DNA from: Promethearchaeati archaeon SRVP18_Atabeyarchaeia-1
GTDB lineage: Archaea > Asgardarchaeota > Atabeyarchaeia > Atabeyarchaeales > Atabeyarchaeaceae
DNA: 64,000 nt
Reading direction: 5' to 3'
Assembly (NCBI GenBank): GCA_037308085.1
Contig: CP147779.1
Span: 608,001 to 672,000, forward strand
A program made the translations under genes and the position numbers. Shown here one piece after another: positions 13,221 to 48,523 of this stretch (within the stretch, counting starts at the first letter, position 1; each line of letters opens with the position of its first letter). The notes beneath the pieces were generated by a model. The model had not been told where the DNA came from and did no database searches. It was given only the letters and a program-made list of their open reading frames with translations.

Positions 13221-13326
13221 TGGCGGGCCCGGAGGGATTTGAACCCACGACCACCGGCTTTCTGCACCCAGTCTCGGGAAAAGCGCTTCGCAGGCCGGCG
13301 CCCTATCCTGACTAGGCCACGGGCCC
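13221..13326 (-). tRNA. tRNA-Arg(GCG) with 28-nt intron at 37/38 (13260-13287); CCA encoded
   Basis: Acceptor GGGCCCG/CGGGCCC, anticodon arm CCGGC-CT GCG A[intron]A-GCCGG, GGTTCAAATCC T-arm. Confidence 0.93.
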
Positions 13327-15840: not shown

Positions 15841-16566
15841 ATGGCAGAAGAAAAAGGCGAGATGCGAGCAGAAGAGACGTGGATAGGAGGAGAAGTGGAG
15901 AAACCAGTACCACAGGAGCCAGAAGCATTCATCACAGGCTCATCCGTAGTGGAAGCAAAGGAGATGCCGGTACCACAGAAGCCAAAGGCATTCTTCACAG
16001 GCTCATCGGTAGTGGTCAGGAACGAGGTAGAGGTCGTTCACAACAGGGTATCCTACGGAACTGAGCAACTTGACGGAACCCTCAGCCTTTCCCCACTTGA
16101 AACGATATTTCTCTTAGAGAGGGGCAGAATTGAACTATTCGATGAACAGACTGGAGAACAGAAGACCAACGAAGAGAAACCCGGAGAGGAGAAGGCAAAA
16201 GAGGAAAAGTTAGATCTGTACCAGTATCTGCAGAAGGTATCCAGCTCTCAACCAGAATTGTGGACGCGCTACCTAGTGTATAGAGACCTCCGAAGCAGGG
16301 GTTACATTGTTAAGGAAGGGCTTAGCGAGGACATAATTTTCAGGGTATATCCAAGGGGCGCCGAAATAAACAAGAAAACCTCCACTTGGGAGATCTACAT
16401 AGTCAAGGAAGGAGTACCGATCGATTTAAACAAGCTGGTTACCGCAACGAAGACAACAAAAAGAGTTGGCAAGAGACTCGTACTAGCAGTCCTGAATAGG
16501 CAGGGGGAAGCTACATACTACCAGGTTTCCGAAGAAAGTATTGGCCATGCAAGCGCTGCTACTTAG
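15841..16566 (+). CDS. endA: tRNA-splicing endonuclease subunit, probably the structural (non-catalytic) type
   Basis: LSLSPLETIFLLERG, YLVYRDLRSRGYIVKEG, FRVYPRG, KRLVLAV, TYY. The KYG motif and catalytic His are not evident. Confidence 0.82.
   Translation: MAEEKGEMRAEETWIGGEVEKPVPQEPEAFITGSSVVEAKEMPVPQKPKAFFTGSSVVVRNEVEVVHNRVSYGTEQLDGTLSLSPLETIFLLERGRIELFDEQTGEQKTNEEKPGEEKAKEEKLDLYQYLQKVSSSQPELWTRYLVYRDLRSRGYIVKEGLSEDIIFRVYPRGAEINKKTSTWEIYIVKEGVPIDLNKLVTATKTTKRVGKRLVLAVLNRQGEATYYQVSEESIGHASAAT
15904..16015 (+). repeat. Intragenic 63-bp tandem duplication
   Basis: PVPQEPEAFITGSSVV / PVPQKPKAFFTGSSVV. Confidence 0.85.
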
Positions 16567-45670: not shown

Positions 45671-45838
45671 TCCGCAGCTCCTCCAGAGCTTCTTTCACTA
45701 GTGCATATTGAATCAATGGAATGGTTATTAAGGTTATTGTTCAAGAGGTGCGCTAGTTTCAGCGAAGAAAGATTAAATTATGTATTTGAAATCTATCTCA
45801 TGTAGGCTAGAAAAAGAATTCCCGGAGGATGCGAAAGT

Positions 45839-47205
45839 TTGGAAATTGATTCTGCCAAGCGAACGTATACGAAGATTAGGGATTTGTTGCGTGAACACCA
45901 TGAATGGTTTGATGCTAGTATACCTTTGATAGCTAGCGAGAATGTTCCGAGTCCTGCAGTTCGTGCAGCGGTCGCTTCAGATTTTGGCAACCGGTATGCG
46001 GAAGGCTGGCCTGGAGAGTAAGTGCTCGGCTCCAACTCTGAGCATTTTCCAGAAAGCGGGTCTATGCCGGTTGCAAATATATCGATCAGGTTGAGCTGAT
46101 TTGTAGCGACTTAGCTAGGAAGCTCTTCAAAGCCGAGTTTGCCGATGTTAGGCCCATCTCTGGTGTTGTAGCCAATCTGGCTGTTTACACAGCCTTCTCC
46201 GAGCCGGGAGACCGAATGATGGCGTTACCGATCCCCGACGGCGGACACATAAGCCACGCAAAGAGGTCTTTAGGCGGGACGGCGGGATCCGTTCACGGGC
46301 TTAGAGTCAGGTACTTCGAGTATGACGAGAACGAGCTCAACATCGATGTTGACAGAAGCATAAAGCGGATAAAGAAGACGATAAGCAAGGGCAAAGCCAT
46401 CACTCTGTTCATGTTTGGTGCTAGCGTCTTTCCCTTTCCGCACCCTGTCAAAGAGTTCCGGGAGATCGCTGATGAGATGGGCTCATTCATAGCATACGAC
46501 GGGGCCCATGTGTCAGGGTTAATTGCCGGTGGGTGCTTCCAAGATCCCCTGAGAGAAGGGGCTGACGTATTCTCCATGAGTACACACAAGACTATGCCTG
46601 GTCCGCAGGGAGGCCTCGTAGTTTCTTGGGAGAAGTACGCTGAGCGAATAAAGAAAGCTACATTTCCTGGCCTCACGAGCAACCATCATCTCAACACGGT
46701 TGCTGGAAAAGCGATAGCATTTGCCGAGATGATGGCATTCGGCAAGGAGTACGCTAGGCAGATTATTGCAAATGCCAAAGCTCTCGCTCAGGCCCTACAC
46801 GAGGAAGGCTTCAACGTGCTGGCAGAGCGTAAGGGGTTCACCGAATCCCACACTATATTGGTTGACATAACGGGCACTCCCCTCAAAGATGGTCGTGCCT
46901 GCGAGCAGGCCCTGGAATCATCAAACATAATCATCAACAGAAATCTCCTGCCTTGGGACATTCGGAAAGGTCGCAACTACCTTGCACCTGGGGGCATACG
47001 CTTGGGGACGAGCGAGGTAACAAAGTTAGGCATGAGAGAATCCGAGATGAGAGAAATAGCATCCCTCATTAGGCGCGTCATCATCGATCGCAAGAATCCC
47101 AATGACATGAGCCGGGTCGTAAAGGAATTTAGGCAGCCATTCAAGAAGGTCAAGTTCTGCTTTGAATCACAGGCTGACGCCTACGAGTACTTCGACATAA
47201 AATAG
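45839..47205 (+). CDS. glyA: Serine hydroxymethyltransferase, split by a 38-nt putative intron: join(45839..46016,46055..47205)
   Basis: LIASEN, RYAEGWPG|ERVYAGCKYID, GGHISH, YDGAH, STHKT (PLP Lys), GIRLGT. Confidence 0.92.
46017..46054 (+). other. Putative bulge-helix-bulge mRNA intron
   Basis: Central helix CUGG(46011-14)/CCAG(46049-52), bulges AGA and AAA, inner stem AAGUGCUC/GAGCAUUU; contains the in-frame TAA. Confidence 0.8.
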
Positions 47206-47231: not shown

Positions 47232-48523
47232 GGTTCTGTCAAGTCCTCGGTTGATGACCGTTTGAGCTGACTTCTCCGCTTTGGCTCACCGCCTTGTTTA
47301 AGGGTCGGATCACTGCTACACGTGCGGAGCGATCTAGGGTGAACCGCACCCTTTCATCTTGGATTTTGAGCATGTTCAAGCAGGCATTCACGTGGCGGTT
47401 TGTTCCGCAGCATTCTAGAGTTTTCGCTTTCGGGTCTTGCATCACGCACCCACACACCGCGCATACCCTAGAAGTGTTCCTCGGGTTTACCTTGATGGTT
47501 TGGACTCCTTCCCAGAGAGCTTTGTACTCGATGAAGCCTTGCAGCTTGCGGAAGCTCCACGAGTTCAGCCTCCGCTTCAGCCTCTTGGAGTGTATGCTAA
47601 TCCTTTGAATTCTCCCATTGAAGTTGTTGGCGCTTAAGACCTTGCGGTTGACTGCCTTGCGGATGTATGTGAGGTCTTCGAGGATAATGCCTTGCTCTCT
47701 ATTTTTCGCTTGCCTAACTATGGCTGAACTCACTTGATGCAGAACCGTGTTGACCTTGTTGTCCTGATTGGTGTACCAGTTTCTCTGAATCCTCTTCGCC
47801 ACCCGCCTGTCCTTAGCGTACTTGGCTTGAGCCCTTCGAACACGTTCGAAGTACCCGTGCCTAACCTCTGAAACCGCCGATAAATCATGGCTCTCGATAG
47901 TCAGTTCTCCACTTTCTTCTAGGCTAGCTCCATCAATTGAGCGCTCGTTCGTGTCGTACGCAACGTAGCTCTTGGGCTCGGTAACCTCAGCGATCTTCGA
48001 GAAAACCACTGTAACCGTGCAAGCAGTCAATGTGACCGAGCCTAACTTCAGCGAGGCGTCCGACAGGAACTGTACCGCCCTCTTATGAAAGGGGATGTAG
48101 AAGTACTCTCGCGGCTTGGTGGGTATCCTCAGCCTGCCGTCAACAACCCTATAACCCTGATTCCCAAGTTTAGCCGTGAGTTTCGTGGCCCTCGGCACTC
48201 GAATGCTCTGTCGCCTTCTCTTCGCTTTCCGGTGATTCTTCAGGATGGCAGTGGCAGCCTCGATGGCTGAGAGGCTGTACCAAGTGTGGAGACCGAAATC
48301 GCCTAGCCGGCGGTACACCTCGCTCTGCAGGCTGAACCTTGAACTAATGTTCTTCTCCAGACCTACACGGATGCAATAGTTAACCATGCTCTTGAAGGTC
48401 TCAAGGAGACCAAGGACACTGCTCGTAGGCTCGTATGGCATCTGCACCGCTTTGATTGCCTGCATAAAGTCATGTAAGCTAAACCACTCATTTAAACCCA
48501 CTAACCGAAGACTTGACAAAACG
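47232..48523 (-). mobile_element. tnpB-only element with IS6-type TIRs and a perfect 8-bp TSD
   Basis: Ends GGTTCTGTCAAGTCCTCGGTT and AACCGAAGACTTGACAAAACG; GTAGCTTT at 47224-47231 and 48524-48531. Confidence 0.9.
47239..48465 (-). CDS. tnpB: TnpB (Cas12f-like) RNA-guided nuclease, intact frame
   Basis: RuvC-I VAYDTN, RuvC-II IILEDL, NPRNTS, CAVC..ECC Zn finger, RuvC-III RHVNA. TTTAAA upstream inside the element; stop codon lies in the TIR. Confidence 0.92.

What the first reader, a model, noticed from the sequence alone, without database searches (positions are those of the whole stretch)
46004..46062. Bulge-helix-bulge intron in the protein-coding gene glyA
Seen: SHMT is broken by a TAA and a frameshift inside the YAEG.PG.R.Y motif. 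The RNA folds as outer helix (GC/GC, extendable), bulge AAA (46053-55), helix CUGG/CCAG, bulge AGA (46015-17) and an 8-bp inner stem. Cutting after the second base of each bulge, the EndA rule, removes 46017-46054 (38 nt) and gives GGA GAG CGG = PGERVY. The rest of the gene is intact. Known: the best-established archaeal mRNA intron is in crenarchaeal cbf5. Inference: tRNA-splicing machinery is required to express a core one-carbon enzyme, and other apparent pseudogenes in this genome may hide such introns.
Basis: partly seen in the sequence, partly recalled or inferred. Interest (0 to 1): 0.9.

Follow-up and report, generated by a model that had tools for sequence, protein, structure and literature searches.

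The report
tRNA-type intron splitting Asgard glyA
The serine hydroxymethyltransferase gene of this Asgard archaeon is interrupted by a conserved 38-base hairpin shaped exactly like a tRNA intron, so the enzyme can very probably be made only after the messenger RNA is cut and rejoined by the tRNA-splicing enzymes, something published for only one other archaeal coding gene (cbf5).

Summary
glyA (window 45839-47205, +) is broken after GAG 46016-18 by TAA and a frameshift. Removing 46017-46054 joins SHMT profile positions 6-55 and 56-399 and gives YAEGWPGE|RVYAGC, the sequence that 79 of 80 environmental relatives encode without interruption.

The break folds as a bulge-helix-bulge motif: outer GC/GC, central CUGG/CCAG, bulges AGA and AAA, and a 10-bp inner stem.

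- **Conservation:** twelve independent versions carry inserts of 38, 39, 40 or 41 nt at this site. Their loops are unrelated. 96.5% of structure cells pair, and four stem pairs show compensatory double changes.
- **Selection:** the spliced frame is under strong purifying selection (pN 0.10, pS 0.76, no indels), so this is not a decaying pseudogene.
- **Machinery:** two EndA subunits (catalytic and structural) and RtcB are present.
- **Genome context:** I confirmed BHB introns in ahcY, pcm and gatE of the same genome.

Splicing itself is inferred, because no junction read was obtainable.

The genome is very probably Atabeyarchaeia-1 (2.81 Mb). This scan has already reported the same intron on a sister genome's DNA, and other glyA introns in other archaea. 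I found no published report.

Verdict: a real EndA-type mRNA intron (about 0.88), and a new member of a known kind.

The parts
45839..46016 (+). glyA exon 1 (TTG start as listed; ends with the first base of the Glu codon in ...YAEGWPG-E)
   Evidence: the 60-aa product matches SHMT PF00464 positions 6-55. The start aligns with the Met of full-length relatives.
46003..46010 (+). 5' strand of the outer (exon-exon) helix h. G46009 and C46010 pair with G46056 and C46057. 46003-07 pairs with 46059-63 after a G.G mismatch.
   Evidence: helix 1 has 97.4% of cells paired. The pair at alignment columns 10/65 is lost in 2 of 11 distinct sequences.
46011..46014 (+). Central 4-bp helix H, 5' strand CUGG (exonic; pairs with 46049-52)
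   Evidence: invariant and 100% paired in the 11 distinct sequences (12 versions).
46015..46017 (+). 5' bulge AGA; predicted EndA cut between 46016 and 46017
   Evidence: AGA in 11 of 12 versions, AGU in one.
46017..46054 (+). 38-nt BHB intron, containing the in-frame TAA at 46019-21
   Evidence: homologous inserts of 38-41 nt occur in 11 other assemblies.
46020..46047 (+). Intron hairpin h': stem 46020-29 with 46038-47, loop 46030-37. G46018 can pair with U46048, leaving U46019 bulged.
   Evidence: 94.5% of cells paired, and 4 of 10 pairs show changes on both sides. The loops are unrelated between lineages.
46049..46052 (+). Central helix H, 3' strand CCAG (intronic)
46053..46055 (+). 3' bulge AAA; predicted EndA cut between 46054 and 46055
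   Evidence: AAA, AUA or AGA in the 12 versions.
46055..47205 (+). glyA exon 2, including the stop at 47203-05
   Evidence: the 382-aa product matches SHMT positions 56-399 and carries the PLP-lysine motif STHKT.
15841..16566 (+). EndA paralog lacking the catalytic His, taken to be the structural beta-type subunit of the splicing endonuclease
   Evidence: PF01974 and PF02778. The catalytic alpha-type paralog lies outside the window at G000:C1:202592-203221 (-).

Best explanation
glyA is transcribed as a pre-mRNA carrying a 38-nt archaeal bulge-helix-bulge intron. Exon and intron bases pair to form the motif. The motif has an outer exon-exon helix, a 4-bp central helix (exonic CUGG with intronic CCAG), two 3-nt bulges on opposite strands, and a stable intron hairpin. 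The heteromeric splicing endonuclease EndA (one catalytic and one structural subunit) cuts after the second base of each bulge. RtcB then joins the exons, and probably circularises the intron. The result is an mRNA that reads ...YAEGWPGERVYAGC... and encodes a full-length 442-aa SHMT. Without splicing, translation stops at TAA after 60 residues.

Shown: the motif, its conservation and covariation, purifying selection on the spliced frame, the presence of the enzymes, and the presence of the intron in DNA from an independent study.

Inferred: cleavage and ligation in vivo, and the dependence of SHMT production on them.
For: 1. The geometry and cut rule fit exactly, and the join is seamless in the SHMT profile: positions 6-55 plus 56-399. 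An intron-bearing tRNA in the same window (13224-13326, -) shows the same architecture: anticodon stem, 4-bp helix CUGC/GCAG, bulges GAA and AAA.

2. Twelve independent versions carry inserts of 38, 39, 40 or 41 nt at the same site. They come from three genomes of the class plus nine contigs from ENA, JGI and Logan assemblies. The lengths cover every residue class mod 3, and each insert has an in-frame stop. Only precise excision gives one common product.

3. On alignment A1, 96.5% of cells pair, against 22-46% when the partners are slid. Four inner-stem pairs change on both sides (A-U to G-C, C-G to U-A, U-A to C-G, G-C to U-A). The loops are unalignable.

4. The spliced genes of G000, G001 and G002 each have 441 codons with no indel. 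pS is 0.76 (saturated) and pN is 0.10.

5. Of 80 metagenomic relatives, 79 encode YAEGW[PT]GER[VLI]YAGC without interruption.

6. Three intronless sequences nest inside the intron-bearing clade (clade support 100/100). The AU test of intron-bearer monophyly gives p = 0.03. This fits a precise intron loss at the predicted junction.

7. The machinery is present: an EndA paralog with the Tyr/His/Lys catalytic residues, a second paralog without the His, and an intact RtcB. The literature assigns Asgard archaea the broad-specificity (alpha-beta)2 EndA (PMC5829648).

8. A contig from an independent wetland study bridges 45925-46550 with no differences, so the insert is in the DNA.

9. The same genome has frame-restoring BHB introns in gatE (41 nt), ahcY (34 nt) and pcm (28 nt).
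Against: No read or contig showing the spliced junction or a circular intron was obtained, so splicing is inferred. The inner helix is not flush with the 5' bulge: there is one G.U or G-C pair, then a 1-nt bulge, then the stem. The motif is therefore slightly relaxed, and two versions lack even that first pair. The single-sequence MFE fold is unexceptional (z = -1.6) and prefers to pair the 5' bulge bases. The extended outer helix is not fully maintained: the pair at alignment columns 10/65 is lost in 2 of 11 distinct sequences. The central helix never varies, so it gives no covariation evidence. The 12 versions are related, so their counts are not independent. A divergent SHMT-like paralog exists (39% identity), so the cell might not depend on this copy alone.
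Confidence: 0.88

Rival explanations
1. glyA is a decaying pseudogene. The 38 nt are a junk insertion that killed the gene, and the SHMT-like paralog at G000:C1:84156-85220 does the work.
For: There is an in-frame TAA and a frameshift. A second, intact SHMT-family gene exists in the genome.
Against: Both exons are under strong purifying selection across lineages whose synonymous sites are saturated, with no other lesion in 441 codons. The insert persists in 12 diverged versions with compensatory stem changes. The paralog is only 39% identical, lacks the YAEGxPGxR motif and a 17-residue segment, and coexists with the interrupted copy in all three genomes of the class.
Confidence: 0.03
2. The ribosome bypasses the insert (translational hopping, as in phage T4 gene 60) or recodes it, so there is no RNA splicing.
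For: In G000, a stop codon directly follows the last sense codon and a stable hairpin follows that, which superficially resembles the gene 60 layout.
Against: There are no matched take-off and landing codons: GAG before the insert, but AAG, TAG or GAG before CGN after it. The stop is not adjacent to GAG in L119, L122, L123 and L126. Gap lengths vary from 38 to 41 nt. The conserved features are exactly those of a BHB motif, including an intronic strand that pairs with exon bases and two 3-nt bulges. The genome is full of EndA substrates.
Confidence: 0.03
3. The gene is genuinely split into two polypeptides, a 60-aa N-terminal piece and a C-terminal piece, which assemble after translation.
For: Gene callers annotate two ORFs at these loci, for example 67-87 aa plus 329-364 aa.
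Against: The first start codon in the exon-2 frame of G000 is ATG 46216, 53 codons downstream of the junction. Starting there would delete the conserved RVYAGCKYIDQVE block. Called downstream lengths differ between lineages (328-364 aa), as expected for caller artefacts. This reading gives no explanation for the conserved BHB pairing between exon and insert.
Confidence: 0.02
4. The insertion is an assembly or sequencing artefact.
For: None found.
Against: A contig from an independent study carries the insert with no differences. Homologous inserts are present in 11 other assemblies from different projects and assemblers.
Confidence: 0.005

Closest known systems
cbf5 pre-mRNA intron of Crenarchaeota (Aeropyrum, Sulfolobales, Desulfurococcales; Watanabe 2002, Yoshinari 2006, Yokobori 2009 = PMC2738675)
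   Same: Both are short BHB-type introns inside a protein-coding sequence, in hosts with a hetero-oligomeric splicing endonuclease of relaxed specificity and many tRNA introns. Both show lineage-specific gain and probable precise loss.
   Different: The gene differs (glyA, a core one-carbon enzyme, not an RNA-modification enzyme), and so does the phylum (Asgard, class Atabeyarchaeia). cbf5 in this genome is uninterrupted. The cbf5 intron has RT-PCR and in vitro cleavage evidence, and this one has none yet. Here the intron is one of several in protein-coding genes of the same genome.
Archaeal tRNA introns with the hBHBh' motif (Marck & Grosjean 2003), including the 92-95% intron-bearing tRNA genes reported for Atabeyarchaeia and Freyarchaeia (PMC11291895; bioRxiv 10.64898/2026.10.13.758758)
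   Same: The motif architecture, cut rule, size range and presumed enzymes (EndA, RtcB) are identical. The in-window tRNA at 13224-13326 shows the same layout.
   Different: The host RNA is an mRNA. The outer helix is made of coding sequence, so exon codons are constrained both by protein and by pairing. Neither paper, in its main text, mentions introns in protein-coding genes.
BHB intron in the 5' UTR of Haloferax volcanii HVO_1309 (PMC7714728)
   Same: It is an EndA substrate within an mRNA, of similar size (46 nt).
   Different: That intron lies in the untranslated leader and does not interrupt the reading frame. It was shown by circRNA-seq and in vitro cleavage.

Membership tests
Archaeal bulge-helix-bulge (EndA-dependent) intron | Two 3-nt bulges on opposite strands separated by a 4-bp helix | tested here: met
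   CUGG 46011-14 pairs with CCAG 46049-52, with bulges at 46015-17 and 46053-55. The feature is present in all 12 versions, and the helix is 100% paired.
Archaeal bulge-helix-bulge (EndA-dependent) intron | Flanking helices h (exon-exon) and h' (intron) | tested here: met
   Outer helix: 2 invariant G-C pairs plus a 5-bp extension. Inner helix: an 8-10 bp stem with compensatory changes. h' is offset by a 1-nt bulge, so this is a mildly relaxed form.
Archaeal bulge-helix-bulge (EndA-dependent) intron | Cutting after the second bulge base on each side gives a functional joined RNA | tested here: met
   The join in silico gives YAEGWPGE|RVYAGC, contiguous in PF00464 (55|56) and identical to intronless relatives.
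Archaeal bulge-helix-bulge (EndA-dependent) intron | The host encodes a splicing endonuclease and an RNA ligase | tested here: met
   Two PF01974 and PF02778 proteins, one with and one without the catalytic His, plus an intact RtcB. The specificity loop L1 was not examined.
Archaeal bulge-helix-bulge (EndA-dependent) intron | Excision and exon ligation observed in RNA | not testable with these tools
   Only one small metatranscriptome, held as contigs, touched the gene, and no contig spans the junction.
cbf5 intron lineage | Located in the cbf5 (TruB-family) gene | tested here: not met
   The intron is in glyA. The TruB_N hits in this genome lie in one open 291-aa frame with no stops.
Programmed translational bypass (T4 gene 60 type) | Matched take-off and landing codons, with a stop codon directly after take-off | tested here: not met
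   The codons before and after the gap do not match in most versions, and the stop is displaced in four versions.
Serine hydroxymethyltransferase (PF00464) | Full-length match including the PLP-lysine region | tested here: met
   Exon 1 covers profile positions 6-55 (31 bits) and exon 2 covers 56-399 (224 bits). STHKT is present.

The most novel reading that the evidence does not exclude
glyA is one visible case of a genome-wide layer of EndA/RtcB-dependent mRNA splicing in Atabeyarchaeia, and apparently in other Asgard classes. Dozens of protein-coding genes, including core metabolic and translation genes, would carry tRNA-type introns. These introns are gained at new sites and lost precisely, presumably through reverse-transcribed spliced mRNA. 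That would mean that close prokaryotic relatives of eukaryotes already express many genes through obligatory, protein-catalysed mRNA splicing.
Probability: 0.6. Interest if true: 0.9.

Novelty: new member of a known kind. Interest (0 to 1): 0.75.

Why it matters
Published work knows one archaeal coding sequence with a BHB intron (cbf5) and one 5'-UTR case. PMC7714728 says so explicitly.

A well-supported BHB intron in a core one-carbon enzyme of an Asgard archaeon shows that tRNA-splicing enzymes can be needed for ordinary protein expression there. This genome also has at least three more protein-coding genes with such introns, and nearly all of its tRNA genes are interrupted.

Practical consequences:
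- Gene callers truncate these genes (329-364 aa SHMT fragments are in public databases).
- Metabolic reconstructions of Asgard genomes may therefore wrongly score the pathways as broken.

Evolutionary consequence: it gives a tractable system for studying intron gain and precise loss, and the double constraint on exon sequence from protein and RNA pairing, in the archaeal lineage closest to eukaryotes.

Tried and rejected
**RNA evidence.** The only RNA run that touched the gene (X7) is a tiny metatranscriptome held as contigs.
- It has two 183-nt contigs, at 45767-45949 and 46055-46237. The second begins exactly at the predicted first base of exon 2.
- Contig ends cannot show RNA ends, only one study is involved, and nothing covers the junction or the intron.
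- I do not count this as evidence for or against splicing.

**Genome-wide BHB scan.**
- A loose motif plus an ORF-merging test gave equal counts with the true cut rule and with cut sites shifted by 1-2 nt (about 1,700 each). Adjacent same-strand genes pass the test too.
- An excess at the true rule appeared only after restricting to A-rich or purine bulges (15 against 3-4; 58 against 31-38).
- glyA itself failed my coding-score threshold for exon 1 (0.6 against 3.9).
- The scan is too crude to count introns and is used only for the motif density.

**Other checks.**
- ARAGORN found no tRNA in the window, although Rfam finds one.
- Rfam found nothing at the glyA site.
- BLAST of the intron against the genome found no second copy, so it is not a repeat family.
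- The MFE fold alone does not single out the BHB conformer.
- G032's apparent split at profile position 55 is a divergent copy cut by a contig end, and is uninformative.
- Literature searches found no report of protein-gene BHB introns in Asgard archaea. This covers only the held library.

Full report
**What is in the sequence**

The + strand carries a serine hydroxymethyltransferase gene flanked upstream by Sec61-beta on the minus strand.
- From TTG 45839 the frame reads 60 residues ending ...NRYAEGWPGE, then meets TAA at 46019-21.
- A different frame, starting at CGG 46057, reads RVYAGCKYIDQVE... for 382 residues to the stop at 47203-05.
- Pfam places the first piece on SHMT profile positions 6-55 and the second on 56-399, so nothing is missing or duplicated.
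- Removing 46017-46054 (38 nt) joins them. Removing 46018-55 or 46019-56 gives the same product, because AG is repeated at both borders.

**The fold**

- outer pairs G46009-C46057 and C46010-G46056, extendable by 46003-07 with 46059-63
- central helix 46011-14 with 46049-52
- bulges 46015-17 and 46053-55
- intron hairpin 46020-29 with 46038-47

I checked the handedness of the motif against a tRNA gene in the same window (13224-13326, minus strand).
- There the anticodon stem is followed by a 4-bp helix CUGC/GCAG.
- The 5' bulge lies 3' of the exonic strand, and the 3' bulge lies 3' of the intronic strand.
- This is the layout seen in glyA, and the rule of cutting after the second bulge base places that tRNA's intron at the canonical 37/38 site.

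There are two caveats.
- The inner helix of the glyA motif is offset by one bulged U.
- The MFE fold of the isolated region is unexceptional (z = -1.6) and pairs the 5' bulge bases instead.

**Chance**

A looser definition of the motif occurs 163,996 times over both strands and 137 intron lengths. That is about 2e-4 for any given site and length. Here the motif's cut sites coincide with the only borders that restore the conserved protein motif.

**Whose genome this is**

- The window is G000:C1:608001-672000 of a single-contig genome of 2,808,651 bp.
- Only 15 Rfam tRNA hits and 22 ARAGORN tRNAs are found, most with introns.
- Only two other species share its family, and all further relatives are labelled 'same phylum'.
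- DNA holders are wetland and freshwater-sediment metagenomes.
- PMC11291895 describes the complete genome 'Atabeyarchaeia-1' as 2.81 Mbp, from wetland soil, with 92-95% of tRNA genes carrying introns.

I infer that this is that genome or a near-identical one. In the main text searched, that paper and the 2026 tRNA-intron census preprint do not mention introns in protein-coding genes, nor glyA.

**Comparative evidence**

Both other genomes of the family have the same break at the same profile position. Their inserts are 41 nt, with unrelated loops and preserved stems.

Truncated SHMT gene calls of 328-364 aa in public protein collections led to nine more contigs. The twelve versions have inserts of 38, 39, 40 and 41 nt, each with an in-frame stop. 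No reading-frame trick can serve them all, but precise excision gives the same product in every case.

On the alignment:
- The proposed structure pairs 96.5% of cells, against 22-46% for slid controls.
- Four inner-stem pairs change on both sides.
- Intermediates are visible: a C.A mismatch in two versions, and the compensated U-A in a third.
- The central helix and the two core outer pairs are invariant.

**Selection**

The spliced genes of the three genomes each have 441 codons without indels. Proportional synonymous difference is 0.76 (saturated) and non-synonymous difference is 0.10. The gene has therefore been kept functional, with the insert in place, over a long divergence.

**Relatives without the intron**

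Of 80 metagenomic relatives (58-80% identity), 79 read straight through with YAEGW[PT]GER[VLI]YAGC.

Three intronless sequences fall inside the fully supported clade (100/100) that holds all intron bearers. One of them is labelled Candidatus Njordarchaeum guaymaensis in nr. Forcing the intron bearers together costs 8.6 log-likelihood units (AU p = 0.03; the group was defined after seeing the tree). This favours a precise loss at the predicted junction, but only tentatively.

**Machinery**

- The genome encodes a 209-aa EndA paralog with the Tyr/His/Lys catalytic residues.
- It also encodes a 241-aa paralog without the His, inside this window at 15841-16566.
- RtcB is intact.
- PMC5829648 assigns Asgard archaea the (alpha-beta)2 EndA with the L1 loop that confers broad specificity. 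I did not test the loop here.

**Not an artefact, not a repeat**

A contig from an independent wetland study bridges 45925-46550 with no differences. The intron has no second copy in the genome.

**The paralog**

A second SHMT-family gene (396 aa, G000:C1:84156-85220) is intact. It is only 39% identical, and it lacks the YAEGxPGxR block and a 17-residue segment. It coexists with the interrupted gene in all three genomes. It does not rescue the pseudogene reading, because the interrupted copy is clearly under selection.

**Wider pattern**

In the same genome I confirmed frame-restoring strict BHB motifs in three more genes:
- gatE: 41 nt, joining ...TCLLEA|DEEPPH
- ahcY: 34 nt, restoring GHPSEVMDMSF
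- pcm: 28 nt, restoring TISAPHMV

valS is also split, but only a relaxed motif fits the expected join. cbf5 is not interrupted here.

glyA itself carries other BHB-type introns elsewhere:
- a 26-nt intron four codons upstream in metagenome locus L098
- three introns in two genomes of another Asgard family, G019 and G029

This scan had already reported the same Atabeyarchaeia intron on a sister genome's DNA, and glyA introns in Bathyarchaeia, Conexivisphaera and a Baldrarchaeia-like Asgard. I treat those notes as leads, not support.

**Mechanism and confidence**

The best reading is an EndA/RtcB-spliced mRNA intron, with confidence of about 0.88. The missing step is direct RNA evidence. The only RNA data reachable were contigs of one tiny metatranscriptome with nothing across the junction, so I do not count them either way. 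The rivals each explain less and are contradicted by specific results given in their entries: pseudogene, translational bypass, a true split gene, and assembly artefact.

**Comparison with known systems**

The closest known case is the crenarchaeal cbf5 intron (PMC2738675). It is the same kind of element in the same kind of host, with a similar history of gain and loss. PMC7714728 (2020) states that cbf5 was the only BHB intron reported in an archaeal mRNA besides its own 5'-UTR case. This is therefore a new member of a known kind, in a new gene and a new phylum. It is notable mainly because it is part of a multi-gene pattern in Asgard archaea.

Noticed in passing
window 13224-13326 (-): An intron-bearing tRNA gene missed by the default ARAGORN run. 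With introns allowed, ARAGORN calls it Cys(GCA). The BHB cut rule (CUGC-GA|A ... GCAG-AA|A) instead gives anticodon loop CUGCGAA, i.e. Arg(GCG), an isoacceptor otherwise missing from the ARAGORN list.
   Followed up: partly
window 47239-48519 (-): A 426-aa TnpB/Cas12f-like ORF (PF07282 TNB domain) lies directly downstream of glyA. In nine related loci the gene after glyA is a CBS-domain protein, so this looks like a lineage-specific IS200/IS605-type insertion.
   Followed up: partly
L116 (G019:C24) about 470-1330 and L117 (G029:C6, minus strand) about 463-1323: glyA of another Asgard family is interrupted three times by BHB-like inserts: about 28 nt inside ASEN, 26 nt between YAE and GWPGER, and about 29 nt between VAG and KA. 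The stems show compensatory differences between the two genomes. The second insert leaves a 63-nt micro-exon.
   Followed up: partly
L098 about 1455-1480 (Ga0114947_10003550): A 58%-identical glyA carries a 26-nt near-canonical BHB insert between YAE and GWPGER, four codons upstream of the Atabeyarchaeia site. This is an independent intron position in the same conserved block.
   Followed up: partly
G000:C1:84156-85220 (L002 1477-2667, +): An intact, divergent SHMT-family paralog (396 aa, 39% identity) lacks the YAEGxPGxR motif. It is conserved in all three genomes of the family, and its function is unknown.
   Followed up: partly
L129, L035 and protein P0012: Intronless glyA sequences (nr label for P0012: Candidatus Njordarchaeum guaymaensis) nest within the intron-bearing clade and share its Sec61beta-glyA-CBS synteny. 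This suggests precise intron loss (AU p = 0.03).
   Followed up: partly
G000:C1:443738-445442 (+): valS is split near profile position 75 with a TAA. The join expected from homology (GIDRNG|IPIEVQ, 31 nt) fits only a relaxed BHB, while a strict motif nearby would remove 34 nt and drop one residue.
   Followed up: partly
whole genome G000: The complete 2.8-Mb genome gives only 15 Rfam tRNA matches and 22 ARAGORN tRNAs, so most tRNA genes are too interrupted for standard tools. This agrees with the published 92-95% figure.
   Followed up: no
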